From positions 1,121 through 65,120 of the IMG/VR virus record IMGVR_UViG_3300027784_000005: 64,000 bases of DNA. One strand, written 5' to 3'. The stretch's first letter is position 1; every line of letters starts with the position of its first letter. Both the position numbers and the translations under genes were made by a program. The notes beneath the pieces are model-generated. The model ran no database searches. It saw only the letters and a list, made by a program, of their open reading frames with translations, and was not told the origin of the DNA. The DNA is from a virus. Below are positions 48,402 through 58,776 of this stretch, in pieces.

Positions 48402-50031
48402 CGTCTTGTAATTTAGTTATCATATTATCCACTTTATTTAATTTATCTATCAACTCAGAACTAGCTTGATCTTTTAATTCTATCTTAATCTCATCTTTCA
48501 ATTGATTTAACAATTTTATTTTATATTTATTAAATAAGTCAAAAGATAATTTTTCTTTATCTTTCTTTGAATATTTACTATAGTTAGATACTAATTGTAT
48601 AAAGCTATCATCGTTGATTAGATTATCATCCTCAGATATTAAAAAGGGATTAATTAGTTTCTCTCTAAAGCTTTTAGGGGACCTAGATATTAAGAATTTA
48701 TCATGTTTAATCTCTGTTATTTCAACCTTAGATACTAAAAGAGAAGCTAAGAGTTTGTCTTCGATTGTTACCTCCTTGGTTTCTTGAGGTCGATTAAATG
48801 TATAAGGATTAACTTGAAATCGATTTAAAAGATGGTAAAGTTCCTCTAAGGGGATATTTGATAATTTACTGAGTTGGTTGATTTGATCAGTTTTAGTAAA
48901 CTTATCTTGTATAGTTGAAAGTCTTTTTATGGCTTCTTTTAAATTATCCTTAGAAGAGGATTTTGAGAATTTATAGAGGAAAGATAGATAGTTATAAGTC
49001 CTTTTCTTTATAGCTTTACTAAAACTCCCGTGTTCTTTTAATAAATCATCAGGGTCTTTCTTCATCTCAAAAACAATCTTAGTTTTTACTCCATGGGATA
49101 AAAACATCTGACCCACATTTAAACCAAATTTAAACCCTGCTTTGTCACCATCACAAAAAATAAGTGCTTGATTTATACTTTTTGAAATTTGGTAGGCTTG
49201 AAATGAATTAAAGTAAGACCCAGATACCGCTATTCCGAGGTTTATTTCTCTCTCAATTAATTGTGCCACATCAAACTGACCCTCAACAACAACAACCTTG
49301 GCTTTCTTTCTTATGCGAGATTTATTTAAATCCCATCCATAAATAACCTCTTTCTTTTTAAACCAATCTCCCTCTTTACTATTTAGGTATTTAGGTACTT
49401 TAGGATTATCTGATAGGGTCCTGCCCATAAATCCAACGATATCCTCTGCTTTAGAGATAGGGAAGATGATTCTATCTTTAAAAAAACTTACATCCTTATT
49501 ATTTTTAGTAACAAGGATGTTTGCTTTTTTCAATAGAGTGGAATCAAAGTCATATTTATTTAAGTGAAAGGGGTTTTTAGGGGCATAGCCTATACCTAGT
49601 TTTTTAGCTGTTTCTTTAGAAATCTCTCTTTTTTTAAGGAAATCCCTAGCATCCTTAGCTTCTGGGGATTCGAATAGGATTTTTTGATAAATATAAGACA
49701 GCCTTTTATTGATATTGATGATGTCGGTATAGTATTCGTCTTTTTTATCAATATTTTTTATTAAACGAGGTTTATTAAATCTTTTCGCTAATTTCTCTAA
49801 AGCTTTTGTATAAGTGATATTTTCTATTAGAGAAACAAATTTAATAGCATTACCTCCCACCCCACAGCCCGCTCCAAAACATTTAAAAATCCCGAGGTCT
49901 TCATTAATGGATAAAGAAGCGGTGTCTTCTTTATGGAATGGACAAACAGCCTTATTATTCTTTACTTCTATGTAATCTTTTACTACTTTTAGTATATCAA
50001 ATTCTTTAGTTAGATTTTCTTCTCTGGTCAT
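48394..50031 (-). CDS. dnaG: DNA primase (DnaG-type)
   Basis: CPFH...CFGAGC Zn finger, KYLNS, Toprim VVEGQFD and DGDKAG. Confidence 0.95.
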   Translation of the reverse strand: MTREENLTKEFDILKVVKDYIEVKNNKAVCPFHKEDTASLSINEDLGIFKCFGAGCGVGGNAIKFVSLIENITYTKALEKLAKRFNKPRLIKNIDKKDEYYTDIININKRLSYIYQKILFESPEAKDARDFLKKREISKETAKKLGIGYAPKNPFHLNKYDFDSTLLKKANILVTKNNKDVSFFKDRIIFPISKAEDIVGFMGRTLSDNPKVPKYLNSKEGDWFKKKEVIYGWDLNKSRIRKKAKVVVVEGQFDVAQLIEREINLGIAVSGSYFNSFQAYQISKSINQALIFCDGDKAGFKFGLNVGQMFLSHGVKTKIVFEMKKDPDDLLKEHGSFSKAIKKRTYNYLSFLYKFSKSSSKDNLKEAIKRLSTIQDKFTKTDQINQLSKLSNIPLEELYHLLNRFQVNPYTFNRPQETKEVTIEDKLLASLLVSKVEITEIKHDKFLISRSPKSFREKLINPFLISEDDNLINDDSFIQLVSNYSKYSKKDKEKLSFDLFNKYKIKLLNQLKDEIKIELKDQASSELIDKLNKVDNMITKLQDDE

Positions 50032-51034
50032 TATTATAAATTTGTTCTTTTAAGAAAAAACTAATAGCTGTTATTATTTGAGGAACAATAGATTTCCCCA
50101 CCTGATCTAGTTGTTGAGTGGAAGTACCATAGAACTTAAAGGTATCTGGCCATCCCATTAATCGGGCTGTTTCTCTTACTGATAGAGTACGAGGTTCATA
50201 TGGGTGTACAAACCTAGAGCAACTTGATGCTACGGTCCAAGAGGGTTTATCATAATAAAGTCTTCTGTTATTTTGAGTATTATAATAAGATTTCCCTGGC
50301 TTTAAGTTTTTAAAACCTTTTTCTCTTATTGAGGAGTGCTTTGGTTTTTCATTATTAAAATCACCCTCTGGTATATCATCAAAAGCTTCGCCTACCGTAC
50401 TCCCATGTCTCATTTGCTCTAAGGCTATCATAGTATCATTAGATAACGAGGATGGATTAAAAGGTAATATTGGTAACTGGGACCCAATCAAAAAGAATCT
50501 TTTCCTCTTTTGTGCTACATTAAAATCATAGGAGTTTAGTATAATTGTTTGAATATAATAACCTTTAAAAGATTGTGATATTTCTCCTGTTTTTACTCCT
50601 TCAATTTTGAAATAACGTTCTCCATTATAATTATAGCTATGGAAATCTAAGTGATTTGTGATATTAGGCACATTCTCCAGAATAAAACCATTAGGTTTAA
50701 TTAGATTACACATAATATCTATAAATCTACAAAAATCATTATTAAACGTTTTAGAGGTTATTTCCCTATTCTCTTTTACTTTTTTAGTACTAAGATTAGA
50801 GAATGTTTTACAATCAGGAGATCCTATAATTAAGTTAGCAGATAATAGGTTTAAAGGGACCTTTGATATATCATTAAAAAACTTAATATCTTTAAAGTTT
50901 CTCTCTATAGTATCTGTGTGTACGAAATTCCTATCATCATAATTAAAAATGGGGCGGAAACCAGCTTCCTGAGCCCCTAATAACCCAGCTCCAGCTCCGC
51001 CCCAAATTCCTCCTACTGTTAGTTGACTATCCAT
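50006..51034 (-). CDS. C5-cytosine DNA methyltransferase-fold protein with atypical motifs
   Basis: Motif IV GSPDC, VI ENV, VIII QKRKR, IX RTLSVRETARLMGWP, X QVGKSIVP; motif I is IWGGAG. Confidence 0.8.
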   Translation of the reverse strand: MDSQLTVGGIWGGAGAGLLGAQEAGFRPIFNYDDRNFVHTDTIERNFKDIKFFNDISKVPLNLLSANLIIGSPDCKTFSNLSTKKVKENREITSKTFNNDFCRFIDIMCNLIKPNGFILENVPNITNHLDFHSYNYNGERYFKIEGVKTGEISQSFKGYYIQTIILNSYDFNVAQKRKRFFLIGSQLPILPFNPSSLSNDTMIALEQMRHGSTVGEAFDDIPEGDFNNEKPKHSSIREKGFKNLKPGKSYYNTQNNRRLYYDKPSWTVASSCSRFVHPYEPRTLSVRETARLMGWPDTFKFYGTSTQQLDQVGKSIVPQIITAISFFLKEQIYNNDQRRKSN

Positions 51035-51744
51035 TAGAATATTCCTCTGGTTTTCATATCCTTATAATAAGCATGGAGTGATGTAGAGAAATAAGTATAA
51101 TTACCGACAGGAACTCCGATTTGAGAAGATATGTATTTCTGTAACTGAATAGCATGCCAGTTATCAAAAGGGAAATGAGTTAAAAAGTCACAAGACCTCA
51201 TGGTATAGACGCAATTTAGTTTATCACCCCTTATCATAAAATTATAAAACATGCTACAAGGTATACGCCCTTTACCTCCAATGTTTTGAAGATCAATTGT
51301 GTTATTATGGATGCTAATGATTGCTTGACGGGTAGGAGAATTTTTCTTGAGCTCTTCTATTATCCTTGTTAATTGGGTTCTTATCCTCTCATTGTAAGTA
51401 TAATGAAAACGCCCATCGTGGATAAACTCTTCCCATACTTCTGATCTTAGTTTCCAAGCCTCTCCCGGGTTTATTAATCTAGCGCTAGTTCTTTCTTTAA
51501 AATCAGCTAAAGCCCATTCTAACATTCTTTGATAATCATCTTCAAATAAATAACTTAAAAAAGAATTTTCATCATCGGGGTTAGTTACCATAAAACTATA
51601 AGATTGCATTTCTTTAGTATAATAATCTTCGTCCCCTTTTACATATTTATCTTGCATGGTGTGAGGTTTAACGGTAGTACCCAATTCCCACAAATCCCTT
51701 TCTACTTCCCTTACTGCTTCTGAACATTTACTAAATATCCTCAT
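51034..51744 (-). CDS. thymidylate synthase-fold enzyme A (dCMP-type specificity residue)
   Basis: RQAIISI, IPC, RSCDFLTHFPFD, SLHAY. Confidence 0.85.
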   Translation of the reverse strand: MRIFSKCSEAVREVERDLWELGTTVKPHTMQDKYVKGDEDYYTKEMQSYSFMVTNPDDENSFLSYLFEDDYQRMLEWALADFKERTSARLINPGEAWKLRSEVWEEFIHDGRFHYTYNERIRTQLTRIIEELKKNSPTRQAIISIHNNTIDLQNIGGKGRIPCSMFYNFMIRGDKLNCVYTMRSCDFLTHFPFDNWHAIQLQKYISSQIGVPVGNYTYFSTSLHAYYKDMKTRGIF

Positions 51745-57788: not shown

Positions 57789-57894
57789 AATCTTTATTAG
57801 TTTAGTTTATATGGAATTGATACAAATATAATATATAATTATATTATAATATACAAATAAAATTTTTCATATTACATTAACTAATCCAGCACTC

Positions 57895-58776
57895 TCACAG
57901 TAAATAAGTATTTTCTTTAGGATCTAAAATATAATTGATTAAAGCATTTAAGAAAGGGGAGTCTATGTCGTCTTTAATGTTTTCAAGGTCATTATAATTT
58001 TTATATATCTTTTTAAAATCGTAATCAAGACTCTGGCCCAAAGATAAAGGGACATGATTTAAGTAATCTAACTTTGACATACTATCACCTAGTTCCCCAA
58101 AAAACTTATCAAAGTAATTCCGACCCTCAGCTTCTCTTTTCTTAGGATAATAAGAATGGGTGGAGGAATGATAATAATGGCCTAAATCTAAATCTAATCT
58201 ATATGCTAACCAACGTTGTATGAATGAGTGGTGAAAGACGTCATAGGGTAAAAGATTGATGACGTCATTAGACCTCATAGAAACAAAACAGTGGAGTTTT
58301 TTATCCCTGATTATGAAATGAAAATTTAATGTACACGGTCTTCTTAAGTATTGCTTCTTATTTATTAGGTATTTTGGAGTCCATAGAGTAATAACAGCTT
58401 CTCTAGAGGATTTATTAGATTTTAATTCTTTATAAACTTCCTCTAACTGATTATTAAACATCTCACCATAGGAATAATGGAACTTACCACCCTCTTTTTG
58501 TAATTTCTTTTCCCATCTAGGTCTGTAAATAAAAGCCCTTCCAGGGTTTGATAGTTGTTTATAGCCATATGTATATGACATTCTGTCTAATAGTTCTTGA
58601 AAAGCCCATCTCCAATTTTTATCGTAAGGTAATATACCGTAACGGGGGTCTGTAAGGCATATTTGGGTGTTCATTAATTCCCTAGTTTTACCTACCAACT
58701 GTCCTTTGAATCTTATATCATTTAATAAGTTGTCATATAAACTTACAAATGTGCCGTTTTCATAATAGTTTTTCAA
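57895..58776 (-). CDS. thymidylate synthase-fold enzyme B (dCMP-type specificity residue)
   Basis: SREAVITLW, RPC, RSNDVINLLPYD. Confidence 0.85.
   Translation of the reverse strand: MKNYYENGTFVSLYDNLLNDIRFKGQLVGKTRELMNTQICLTDPRYGILPYDKNWRWAFQELLDRMSYTYGYKQLSNPGRAFIYRPRWEKKLQKEGGKFHYSYGEMFNNQLEEVYKELKSNKSSREAVITLWTPKYLINKKQYLRRPCTLNFHFIIRDKKLHCFVSMRSNDVINLLPYDVFHHSFIQRWLAYRLDLDLGHYYHSSTHSYYPKKREAEGRNYFDKFFGELGDSMSKLDYLNHVPLSLGQSLDYDFKKIYKNYNDLENIKDDIDSPFLNALINYILDPKENTYLL

What the first reader, a model, noticed from the sequence alone, without database searches (positions are those of the whole stretch)
50006..58776. Candidate undescribed pyrimidine-hypermodification pathway: three TS-fold paralogs, all with the dCMP-type Asp
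Seen: aligned to E. coli TS R166-N177 (RSCDVFLGLPFN), the paralogs read RSCDFLTHFPFD (51034-51744), RSNDVINLLPYD (57895-58776) and RATEIYPKMFMD (51969-52739). All keep a catalytic Cys and have Asp at position 177. A dimeric dCTPase/dUTPase-like gene, a dNMP kinase and a C5-MTase-fold gene are interleaved, with dCMP deaminase and UDG-PolA nearby. Known: Asp here confers dCMP specificity (T4 gp42), and T4 pairs gp42 with gp56 dCTPase and gp1 kinase to replace C. Inference: pre-replicative synthesis of a modified dCTP through sequential or heteromeric TS enzymes. No glycosyltransferase is in the window, so the end product may be new.
Basis: partly seen in the sequence, partly recalled or inferred. 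Interest (0 to 1): 0.9.

Follow-up and report, generated by a model that had tools for sequence, protein, structure and literature searches.

The report
Three cytosine-type thymidylate-synthase-fold genes in phage
An uncultured salt-lake phage carries three thymidylate-synthase-shaped enzymes that all look built for cytosine nucleotides, together with the helper enzymes needed to put an altered cytosine into its DNA; pathways of this kind are known, but these enzyme branches have never been tested and their product cannot be predicted from published rules.

Summary
Two genes, TS-A (57895-58776) and TS-B (51034-51744), are Pfam thymidylate synthases. In an alignment where enzymes of known function behave as expected, both have Asp at the E. 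coli N177 position. The third gene, TS-X (51969-52739), matches no family by sequence. Its model is confident (pLDDT 91) and matches only TS-family structures, and its Cys, Arg and Asp fall in the TS register.

The set of NTP pyrophosphatase, dNMP kinase, Asp177 TS, deaminase and PolA is the published signature of cytosine-modified phage DNA (MetaGPA work).

The TS-X plus TS-B pair is not unique to this phage. The same cassette occurs in the cultured phages Muddy, GTE2, PMBT14 and CPAS-15. This scan has also reported the pair several times on other DNA.

Three things are particular to this phage lineage:
- a third enzyme, TS-A;
- a conventional DNA C5-methyltransferase translationally coupled to TS-B;
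- accessory modification genes inserted between TS-X and TS-B in relatives.

TS-A and TS-B carry an invariant Arg three residues before the catalytic Cys. That fits no published product signature (Leu for dTMP, Asp/Glu for hydroxymethyl, D169N for hydroxyl). The product is therefore unknown: 5-methyl-dC, 5-hydroxymethyl-dC or something new. I class this as a new variant of a known kind.

The parts
57895..58776 (-). TS-A: thymidylate-synthase-family enzyme of 293 aa with a roughly 85-aa C-terminal extension. Cys148, Arg145 (-3), Asp171 (D169 equivalent) and Asp179 (N177 equivalent). The TTG start overlaps the DnaB stop (CTTGA) and an AGGAGG lies 8 nt upstream.
   Evidence: PF00303 at 56 bits. 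Alignment with enzymes of known function. Invariant residues across 24 homologues. Clade support 100/99. Junction sequence.
54331..54879 (-). P-loop dNMP (thymidylate-type) kinase, 182 aa. Inferred to phosphorylate the modified dNMP.
   Evidence: PF02223 E 6.5e-8 and phrog_761 thymidylate kinase E 4e-20. Holds the same position in the cassette in CPAS-15, GTE2, PMBT14 and Muddy.
53707..54327 (-). All-alpha dimeric dUTPase_2 / MazG-PRA-PH-type NTP pyrophosphatase, 206 aa. Inferred dCTPase/dUTPase that feeds dCMP to the TS enzymes.
   Evidence: PF08761 E 5e-9, PF01503 E 4e-4, phrog_12184 E 1e-25. 41% identical to the CPAS-15 'dUTPase' at the same cassette position.
51969..52739 (-). TS-X: cryptic TS-fold protein of 256 aa, unrecognisable by sequence. 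Invariant C119, R140, D151, R101 and R116.
   Evidence: No Pfam, PHROG or PDB sequence hit. AF2 pLDDT 91. Foldseek hits are TS-family structures only. Register from global hhalign. Cys/Arg/Asp invariant in 17 sequences including Muddy gp47, PMBT14 gp48, GTE2 gp39 and CPAS-15 gp21.
51034..51744 (-). TS-B: thymidylate-synthase-family enzyme of 236 aa that ends 13 residues after the H-x-Y motif, so it has no C-terminal tail. Cys163, Arg160 (-3), Asp186 and Asp194 (N177 equivalent).
   Evidence: PF00303 at 54.6 bits. More than 600 metagenomic homologues. Invariant residues. Clade support 100/99, in a clade that includes the CPAS-15, PMBT14 and GTE2 enzymes. Muddy gp46 shares the same residue signature.
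50006..51034 (-). Conventional DNA cytosine-C5 methyltransferase, 342 aa. Its ATG shares one base with the TS-B stop codon (TAATG).
   Evidence: PF00145 E 4e-32. Full-length match to M.HaeIII and M.HhaI. Motifs GSPDCKTFS, ENV, QKRKR and RETARLMGWPD read from the translation. Junction sequence. Conserved next to the B-position TS in the 13 related loci that reach that far.
47883..48401 (-). CDA/dCMP-deaminase-family zinc deaminase, 172 aa, with HSE and PCSHC motifs.
   Evidence: PF00383 E 3e-18 and phrog_174 E 3e-27. Motifs read from the translation.
43703..47419 (-). Family-A DNA polymerase with an N-terminal family-4 UDG domain (GEAPG and HPA motifs kept), a 3'-5' exonuclease domain, and an intein carrying a LAGLIDADG domain.
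   Evidence: PF00476, PF03167, PF01612, PF14528 and PF14890. UDG motifs. Nearest phage polymerases are SPO1-like and PMBT14/Serbin-like.

Best explanation
This is a phage module that modifies cytosine nucleotides in the precursor pool, before replication.

Proposed flow:
1. The all-alpha NTP pyrophosphatase turns dCTP (and dUTP) into the monophosphate.
2. Asp177-type TS-fold enzymes attack C6 of dCMP through their cysteine and install a group at C5. These are TS-B, its recurrent cryptic partner TS-X, and the lineage-specific TS-A.
3. The phage dNMP kinase, followed by host NDP kinase, returns the product to the triphosphate.
4. The UDG-PolA incorporates it into DNA.
5. The CDA-family deaminase diverts part of the (modified) dC nucleotide pool to the thymine side. 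This would explain why the phage has no Asn177 (dUMP-type) TS.
6. The DNA C5-methyltransferase then methylates whatever unmodified cytosines remain at its sites.

Shown here: the folds, the active-site residues, the gene order, their conservation, and the recurrence of the cassette in other phages.

Inferred: every catalytic step, the substrate of each enzyme, and whether the base ends up in virion DNA.

The product cannot be read from published signatures, because both TS-A and TS-B carry Arg at the -3 position. My split is 5-methyl-dC about 35%, 5-hydroxymethyl-dC about 25%, another or new C5 group (or two different products) about 25%, and no modified base in the virion about 15%.
For: - TS-A and TS-B have Asp at the N177 column. 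Controls of known function sort correctly there: Asn in td, SPO1 gp29 and ViI; Asp in T4 gp42, RB69 gp48 and Xp12.
- That Asp is invariant in both families.
- No Asn177 TS exists in the complete 67.6-kb genome.
- The pyrophosphatase, kinase, deaminase and PolA lie within 11 kb on one strand.
- The same order (kinase, NTP pyrophosphatase, cryptic TS-fold, Asp177 TS, deaminase, PolA) is seen in PMBT14, GTE2, CPAS-15, Muddy and a metagenomic contig.
- Published work ties exactly this neighbourhood (Asp177 TS within 3 kb of a dCMP-deaminase gene, with PRA-PH and PolA) to cytosine-modified metavirome contigs. It also shows that such deaminases make dTTP from 5mdCTP.
- The TS-X Cys, Arg and Asp are invariant across very distant homologues, which argues for an active enzyme rather than a decayed copy.
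- 13 IMG/VR relatives keep TS-X, a B-position TS, C5-MTase, deaminase and UDG-PolA in the same order.
Against: - No biochemical or DNA-composition data exist for this phage, or for any member of the TS-A, TS-B or TS-X clades that I could find.
- A conserved DNA C5-methyltransferase would have no substrate if every cytosine were already substituted at C5.
- UDG-fused PolA of the SPO1-like group is associated in the literature with thymine-modified genomes, not cytosine-modified ones.
- Arg at -3 violates the hydroxymethylase signature. In T4 even D145N is inactive.
- No DHFR is encoded, although a methylating TS consumes reduced folate. The host enzyme could serve.
- TS-X is related to TS at fold level only, and its residue mapping rests on a weak profile alignment.
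Confidence: 0.6

Rival explanations
1. Xp12-style 5-methylcytosine phage. This is a more specific version of the best explanation. One Asp177 TS methylates dCMP, and 5mdCTP replaces dCTP. The deaminase converts part of the 5mdC nucleotide pool to dT nucleotides, so no dUMP-type TS is needed. The C5-methyltransferase produces the same base post-replicatively and mops up cytosines that escaped replacement.
For: - A non-acidic residue sits at -3, as in Xp12 (Asn there, Arg here).
- A deaminase lies in cis and the genome has no Asn177 TS.
- Five of seven deaminase-linked Asp177 TS homologues tested by others made 5mdCMP.
- A DNA C5-MTase is chemically coherent only with 5mC as the end product. It is coupled to TS-B by a TAATG overlap and conserved in relatives.
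Against: - TS-A and TS-B are separated from Xp12 TS in the tree (97/92).
- TS-B lacks the C-terminal tail that seals the ThyA active site for hydride transfer: 13 residues follow H-x-Y, against 64 in Xp12 and 70 in td.
- No DHFR is encoded, whereas Xp12 has one.
- It does not explain why three TS-fold enzymes are kept.
- Some relatives carry a GT25 glycosyltransferase and other accessory enzymes that would need a hydroxyl handle.
Confidence: 0.3
2. The modification ends up at thymine positions. An Asp177 TS makes 5-hydroxymethyl-dCMP (or a related compound). The deaminase converts the modified dC nucleotide to the corresponding dU nucleotide, for example 5hmdU, which replaces T. The pyrophosphatase clears dUTP and dTTP. 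Cytosines stay canonical and are protected site-specifically by the C5-methyltransferase.
For: - The UDG-PolA retains its UDG motifs. Its nearest phage relatives are SPO1-like (hmU genomes) and PMBT14/Serbin-like polymerases.
- The literature links active-UDG PolA fusions to T-modified genomes.
- Phage deaminases of this family convert 5hmdC nucleotides to 5hmdU in vivo and in vitro.
- A role for a DNA C5-MTase is natural if C is unmodified.
Against: - All characterised hmU phages use an Asn177 dUMP hydroxymethylase directly, as SPO1 gp29 and ViI did in my alignment.
- The route through dC has been shown only as an artificial in vivo read-out.
- Arg at -3 is not the hydroxymethylase signature.
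- No 5-HMUDK kinase or aGPT-Pplase was found in the ORFs scanned.
Confidence: 0.15
3. There is no modified base in the virion. The module is a nucleotide-supply system that makes dTMP from dCMP (methylation followed by deamination) and boosts precursor pools. TS-X is a non-catalytic regulatory or scaffolding subunit.
For: - All the parts also occur in ordinary dNTP supply sets.
- No glycosyltransferase or other late-acting modification enzyme was found in this phage.
- The C5-MTase implies accessible cytosines.
Against: - Three enzymes with an invariant cytosine-type Asp, and none of the uracil type, is an odd way to make only dTMP.
- Asp177 TS genes are strongly enriched on experimentally cytosine-modified contigs.
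- TS-X keeps its Cys/Arg/Asp triad across phyla of hosts.
- Relatives insert modification-type genes (SAM-MTase, GT25, nucleotidyltransferase) into the module.
Confidence: 0.12

Closest known systems
Metavirome 'Asp177 TS + in-cis dCMP-family deaminase + PRA-PH/MazG + PolA' neighbourhoods (MetaGPA; PMC8670742 and bioRxiv 10.1101/2024.12.05.627091), with Xanthomonas phage Xp12 as the cultured 5mC example
   Same: An Asp at N177. The deaminase lies about 2.6 kb from TS-B. An all-alpha NTP pyrophosphatase with a PRA-PH match, and a family-A polymerase next to the deaminase. No uracil-type TS.
   Different: Xp12 has one TS, with Asn at -3, a full C-terminal region and its own DHFR, and no cryptic TS-fold partner. 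Here there are three TS-fold genes, Arg at -3, no DHFR and an added DNA C5-MTase. TS-A and TS-B do not group with Xp12 TS.
Bacteriophage T4 dC-replacement pathway (gp56 dCTPase, gp42 dCMP hydroxymethylase, gp1 dNMP kinase, cd deaminase)
   Same: The same logical parts list. Asp at the base-specifying position. TS-B, like gp42, lacks the ThyA C-terminal tail.
   Different: The gp42 signature is absent: Asp/Glu at -3 from the Cys (D145N is dead), and Ser two residues before the catalytic-base Tyr. TS-A and TS-B have Arg and Tyr at those positions. T4 also has a normal Asn177 td and glucosyltransferases. This phage has neither.
5-hydroxy-dCMP synthases (RB69 gp48, DLP3 gp80, HY126 AfhB; PDB 9iqc/9iqu)
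   Same: Best PDB sequence match for TS-B and best fold match for TS-X. Short proteins without the C-terminal tail. Asp177.
   Different: The diagnostic D169N substitution is absent from TS-A and TS-B (Asp) and from TS-X (Glu). The -3 residue is Glu in those enzymes and Arg here.
Kinase / NTP-pyrophosphatase / cryptic TS-fold / Asp177 TS / deaminase / PolA cassette of cultured phages (Mycobacterium phage Muddy gp49-44, Gordonia phage GTE2 gp42-35, Pseudomonas phage PMBT14 gp50-45, Clostridium phage CPAS-15 gp23-20)
   Same: Same gene order. Same TS-B clade with Arg(-3)/Asp169/Asp177. The same cryptic partner with an invariant Cys/Arg/Asp triad.
   Different: In those phages the pair is adjacent, with only 3 to 43 nt between the genes or a 4-nt codon overlap, and there is no third TS or C5-MTase. 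Here TS-X and TS-B are separated by a 57-codon ORF, and by up to about 3.5 kb of inserted genes in relatives. TS-A and the C5-MTase are added. None of these cassettes has been characterised in the literature I could search.

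Membership tests
Thymidylate synthase / dCMP hydroxymethylase superfamily (Pfam PF00303) | Sequence match above the Pfam gathering score | tested here: met
   TS-A scores 56 bits and TS-B 54.6 bits against a cut-off of 24.3. This applies to TS-A and TS-B only.
Thymidylate synthase / dCMP hydroxymethylase superfamily (Pfam PF00303) | TS-X: sequence match to the family | tested here: not met
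   No Pfam, PHROG or PDB sequence hit. Local hhalign against the TS-A and TS-B profiles finds nothing. Membership is at fold level only.
Thymidylate synthase / dCMP hydroxymethylase superfamily (Pfam PF00303) | TS fold, with the catalytic Cys at the start of the central strand and Arg at the end of the next strand | tested here: met
   The TS-X model (pLDDT 91) matches only TS-family structures, E 1e-8. The register comes from global hhalign and secondary structure. The residue-level mapping is weakly supported.
T4 gp42-type dCMP hydroxymethylase | Asp at the E. coli N177 position (cytosine specificity) | tested here: met
   Asp in TS-A and TS-B, invariant in their families.
T4 gp42-type dCMP hydroxymethylase | Asp/Glu three residues before the catalytic Cys, which activates the substrate water (PMC6400193) | tested here: not met
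   Invariant Arg in TS-A (R145) and TS-B (R160). T4 gp42, SPO1 gp29 and ViI have Asp at this column.
T4 gp42-type dCMP hydroxymethylase | Ser/Thr two residues before the catalytic-base Tyr (S94-x-Y96) | tested here: not met
   TS-A and TS-B read Tyr-Ser/Thr-Tyr, so Tyr occupies the Ser94 position.
5-hydroxy-dCMP synthase (RB69 gp48 type) | Asn replacing Asp169 (D169N; PMC13326640) | tested here: not met
   Asp in TS-A and TS-B and Glu in TS-X. The RB69 gp48 control shows Asn.
dUMP-type enzymes (ThyA; SPO1 gp29 dUMP hydroxymethylase) | Asn at position 177 | tested here: not met
   Asp in all three window proteins. Asn in the td, SPO1 gp29 and ViI controls.
Xp12-type dCMP methyltransferase | Asp177 with a non-acidic residue at -3, and a deaminase in cis | tested here: met
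   Asp177; Arg at -3 (Xp12 has Asn); deaminase 2.6 kb from TS-B.
Xp12-type dCMP methyltransferase | Phylogenetic grouping with the characterised enzyme; ThyA-like C-terminal region; methyl product | tested here: not met
   TS-A plus TS-B are split from Xp12 and td at 97/92. TS-B has 13 residues after H-x-Y against 64 in Xp12. The product is not testable with these tools.
DNA cytosine-C5 methyltransferase (PF00145) | Conserved motifs I, IV (Pro-Cys), VI (ENV), VIII (QxRxR), IX and X, and full-length similarity to known enzymes | tested here: met
   PF00145 E 4e-32 over residues 13-324. Motifs read in the translation. Full-length alignment to M.HaeIII and M.HhaI. The target sequence was not determined.
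Family-4 UDG fused to PolA (SPO1-like group) | UDG motifs A (GEAPG) and B (HPx) retained | tested here: met
   VGEAPGG and YHPAY are present, with an N-terminal Cys cluster. PF03167 E 5e-23.

The most novel reading that the evidence does not exclude
The Arg(-3)/Asp169/Asp177 enzymes (TS-A, TS-B) and the cryptic TS-X catalyse C5 chemistry on dCMP that differs from the four known outcomes: methyl, hydroxymethyl, hydroxyl, and dUMP-derived products. Alternatively, they act as a two-enzyme relay or heteromer. Either way, this phage lineage, and the more than 100 cultured phages that share the TS-X/TS-B pair (including the therapeutic phage Muddy), would carry a pyrimidine that has not been described. 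In this lineage it might be two different modified pyrimidines.
Probability: 0.22. Interest if true: 0.85.

Novelty: new variant of a known kind. Interest (0 to 1): 0.6.

Why it matters
Thymidylate-synthase homologues are the entry point of nearly all known phage pyrimidine hypermodifications. Their products are currently predicted from three active-site positions. This case has two large uncharacterised clades with a residue (Arg at -3) that the rules do not cover. It also has a cryptic third fold-level relative that genome annotation misses entirely.

The TS-X/TS-B pair also sits in cultured phages, including Muddy, which is used therapeutically. Knowing what it makes bears on restriction and CRISPR evasion, on sequencing artefacts, and on how phage DNA is sensed.

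The three-TS lineage is a natural experiment. TS-A, TS-X and the C5-MTase are inherited together, while TS-B, the kinase and the pyrophosphatase have been swapped. That pattern can guide which combinations to test.

Tried and rejected
- Megablast of the 8.8-kb region against 50,697 phage records gave no match. The phage has no close cultured relative.
- Local profile-profile comparison of TS-X with the TS-A and TS-B alignments found no similarity. Only a widened profile in global mode gave the expected register, and weakly.
- A full-text search for PDB code 9IQC found nothing useful. The identity of 9iqc/9iqu came from the Foldseek titles.
- hhalign of the TS-X profile against single X-like proteins gave mixed results. 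GTE2 gp39 gave nothing, CPAS-15 gp21 was marginal and L019 was weak. A joint MAFFT alignment was more informative.
- 5-hydroxy-dCMP synthase was rejected, because D169 is kept. dUMP hydroxymethylase was rejected, because of Asp177. Canonical gp42-type hydroxymethylase was rejected as a membership claim, because of Arg at -3.
- I looked for a glycosyltransferase, DHFR, 5-HMUDK or TET-like oxygenase in the window and found none. The large unknown ORFs in the module resolve as DUF932-like, gp32-like SSB and a winged-helix protein.
- Literature searches for DNA modification in PMBT14, GTE2, Serbin or Muddy found nothing relevant.
- I did not use read laying. Short-read contigs cannot show base modification.
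- A heteromer prediction for TS-X with TS-B was not possible with the single-chain fold tool.

Full report
**Where the window lies.** The window covers 64 kb of a 67.6-kb IMG/VR virus record rated complete. A public run from a salt-lake metagenome holds the region almost in full and is probably its source. GC content is about 32%. No phage record shares nucleotide similarity with the region.

**Gene map.** Genes from about 62.4 kb down to 33.7 kb run on the minus strand and form a replication and nucleotide-metabolism module. In order of transcription:

| Coordinates | Gene |
|---|---|
| 58773-60104 | DnaB |
| 57895-58776 | TS-A |
| 57144-57788 | sigma factor |
| 55691-57157 | SF2 helicase |
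| 54331-54879 | dNMP kinase |
| 53707-54327 | dUTPase_2/MazG-like pyrophosphatase |
| 52991-53464 | DnaA_C-type HTH protein |
| 51969-52739 | TS-X |
| 51034-51744 | TS-B |
| 50006-51034 | C5-methyltransferase |
| 48394-50031 | DnaG |
| 47883-48401 | dCMP-family deaminase |
| 47605-47886 | Hc1-like protein |
| 43703-47419 | UDG-PolA with an intein |

A 5'-3' exonuclease, a DUF932-like protein, a gp32-like SSB, RecA and an SbcCD-like pair follow.

**Checking the observation.** The three quoted motif strings are present. TS-A and TS-B are clear PF00303 members.

To test the claim about Asp177 I fetched enzymes of known function: RB69 td; T4 gp42 (dCMP hydroxymethylase); RB69 gp48 (5-hydroxy-dCMP synthase); Xp12 TS (dCMP methylase); and SPO1 gp29 and ViI (dUMP hydroxymethylases). 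In the joint alignments the N177 column reads Asn in the three dUMP enzymes and Asp in the three dCMP enzymes, so the column works as a control. TS-A and TS-B both read Asp. The Asp is invariant in 24 TS-A and 30 TS-B homologues.

TS-X is invisible to sequence methods. A model built on 22 homologues is confident (pLDDT 91.3). Foldseek returns only TS-family structures. The top matches are the cytosine-specific branch: HY126 dCMP hydroxylase AfhB, MilA and T4 dCH. Against predicted viral structures its best matches are unnamed 260-aa phage proteins, one of them from Pseudomonas phage PMBT14, followed by annotated TS and gp42 proteins.

A widened profile aligned globally to a TS profile puts C119 on the catalytic Cys, R140 on R166, E143 on D169 and D151 on N177. 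The statistics are weak (E 1e-3, probability 9%). The Arg-to-Asp spacing of 11 residues and the strand-strand-helix placement in the model agree with that register. The proviso is that TS-X is a fold-level relative and not a recognisable paralogue.

**What the active sites say.** Published work predicts product from three positions:
- N177 chooses uracil or cytosine (PMC8670742).
- L143, three residues before the Cys, is hydrophobic in methylases and Asp/Glu in hydroxymethylases. In T4 even D145N is inactive (PMC6400193; PMC13326640).
- D169N marks the flavin-dependent 5-hydroxy-dCMP synthases.

TS-A and TS-B keep D169, so they are not hydroxylases by that rule. At -3 both have an Arg that is invariant in each family and in the TS-B-clade enzymes of CPAS-15, PMBT14, GTE2 and Muddy. 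They also read Tyr-Ser/Thr-Tyr where T4 has Ser-x-Tyr.

Two weak TS-A-search hits that group with T4 gp42 in the tree have Asp at -3, so the column discriminates.

TS-B ends 13 residues after the H-x-Y motif. It lacks the tail that seals ThyA for hydride transfer, as do T4 gp42 and RB69 gp48. Xp12 TS has 64 residues there. No DHFR is encoded. None of the known product classes fits cleanly.

**Distribution.**
- TS-B belongs to a very large family, with more than 600 clusters at E below 1e-10.
- TS-A is confined to about 40 proteins on contigs of this phage lineage.
- TS-X, by sequence, is confined to eight 50%-identity clusters out of 1.8 billion representatives.

A maximum-likelihood tree gives each of TS-A and TS-B 100/99 support. 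It separates the two together from all six characterised enzymes at 97/92. The reference branches are long, so this says 'not inside any characterised clade' rather than giving a firm sister relationship.

**The recurrent cassette.** The same order is found in four cultured phages and one metagenomic contig: kinase, NTP pyrophosphatase, a 250-300-aa unannotated protein, a TS-B-clade enzyme, deaminase, PolA.
- Clostridium phage CPAS-15 (its pyrophosphatase is 41% identical to the window's)
- Gordonia phage GTE2
- Pseudomonas phage PMBT14
- Mycobacterium phage Muddy
- a metagenomic contig

In a joint alignment the unannotated proteins share the Cys, Arg and Asp of TS-X without exception in 17 sequences. 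The PMBT14 protein is a direct fold match of the TS-X model. In PMBT14 and GTE2 the X gene overlaps the TS gene by four bases.

Earlier notes of this scan reported the same pair on other DNA several times and named Muddy. I re-derived the cassette order and the shared residues here, and did not rely on those notes.

**What is particular to this lineage.** 13 IMG/VR loci and two further contigs keep the order DnaB, TS-A, sigma, helicase, kinase, TS-X, a B-position TS, C5-MTase, DnaG, deaminase, Hc1, UDG-PolA.

Identity between the window and these relatives falls into two groups:

| Gene | Identity to the relatives |
|---|---|
| TS-X | 56-58% |
| TS-A, C5-MTase, deaminase, PolA, DnaB | 41-50% |
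| B-position TS | 27-32% |
| kinase | 28-34% |
| dUTPase_2 | no match in these 14 loci |

In the tree the relative's B-position TS falls in the PMBT14/GTE2 subclade, while the window's TS-B falls in the other TS-B subclade, beside the L018-type metagenomic enzymes. So TS-B, and apparently the kinase and pyrophosphatase with it, were exchanged for homologues, while TS-X, TS-A and the methyltransferase stayed.

The stretch between TS-X and the B-position TS varies in length and content. It holds only a 57-codon ORF in the window. One relative has a SAM-methyltransferase there. Another has a cellulase-like protein, a nucleotidyltransferase and an SNase, and the same contig has a GT25 glycosyltransferase beside the deaminase.

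**The methyltransferase.** It is an ordinary DNA C5 enzyme. It aligns over its full length with M.HaeIII and M.HhaI and has all the conserved motifs. Its ATG shares a base with the TS-B stop codon (TAATG).

**How it most likely works.** The parts match the T4 logic and the published metavirome signature. In the preprint, 70% of dCMP-deaminase genes on experimentally cytosine-modified contigs lie within 3 kb of a TS gene, usually an Asp177 type, with PRA-PH and PolA as the commonest neighbours. Five of seven such TS genes made 5mdCMP. The deaminases turned 5mdCTP into dTTP, which removes the need for a dUMP-type TS. This genome has the deaminase 2.6 kb from TS-B and no Asn177 TS.

I therefore read the module as pool-level synthesis of a C5-modified dC nucleotide, with a deaminase branch to the thymine side.

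The conserved C5-methyltransferase is the awkward piece. It is coherent if the product is 5mC, because pre- and post-replicative routes then make the same base. It is also coherent if cytosine stays canonical and the modified base ends up in place of T. The second reading is favoured by the SPO1-like UDG-PolA with intact UDG motifs. Accessory glycosyltransferase-type genes in relatives point instead to a hydroxyl-bearing base in at least part of the lineage. These signals conflict, so I do not commit to a product.

**TS-X.** Its invariant Cys/Arg/Asp across hosts from Actinomycetota to Bacillota to Pseudomonadota argues for catalysis, or at least nucleotide binding, rather than decay. Whether it works as a heteromer with TS-B or as a separate step is open. 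The swap of TS-B without TS-X in this lineage argues mildly against a tightly co-adapted interface.

**Novelty.** The pathway kind is known, and the paired cassette has been seen before in this scan on other DNA. It is uncharacterised in the literature I could search. What is new here is the three-TS architecture, the Arg(-3) signature shared by TS-A and TS-B, the conserved C5-methyltransferase coupling, and the insertion hot-spot.

Noticed in passing
window 43703-47419 (-): The UDG-PolA gene is interrupted by an intein with a LAGLIDADG homing-endonuclease domain (PF14890 and PF14528, roughly residues 676-1042). Relatives have intein-free polymerases of 807-861 aa.
   Followed up: partly
L004:10768-13239, and the relative: The interval between TS-X and the B-position TS is an insertion hot-spot in related phages. 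It holds a SAM-methyltransferase in one. In another it holds a cellulase-like protein, an NTP_transf_2 nucleotidyltransferase and an SNase, and that contig also has a GT25 glycosyltransferase beside the deaminase and a 2OG-Fe(II) oxygenase upstream of DnaB.
   Followed up: partly
window 51034-51744, 53707-54879, versus L004 and L020-L032: TS-B has been exchanged between subclades within this phage lineage, apparently together with the kinase and the pyrophosphatase (27-34% identity or no match). The flanking TS-X, TS-A, C5-MTase, deaminase and PolA are 41-58% identical to the relatives.
   Followed up: partly
window 47605-47886 (-) and 57144-57788 (-): The phage encodes an Hc1-type histone-like protein (PF07432) next to the polymerase, and its own sigma-70-family factor between TS-A and the helicase. 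Both are conserved in relatives.
   Followed up: no
window 52991-53464 (-): A 157-aa protein with a DnaA C-terminal helix-turn-helix domain (PF08299, E 3e-10) sits inside the nucleotide module, between the pyrophosphatase and TS-X.
   Followed up: no
window 16902-22529 (+) and 26000-32293 (+): Two giant structural-region ORFs of 1875 and 2097 aa have no PHROG match. The only Pfam hit is a BNR/YCF48-type repeat in the larger one (residues 678-771).
   Followed up: no
window 50006-58776: A 2012 salt-lake metagenome run holds 99% of the sampled words of this stretch and is probably the source. Feature-based look-alikes of a neighbouring 162-aa protein are mostly from Bacteroidota, which is a weak hint about the host.
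   Followed up: no
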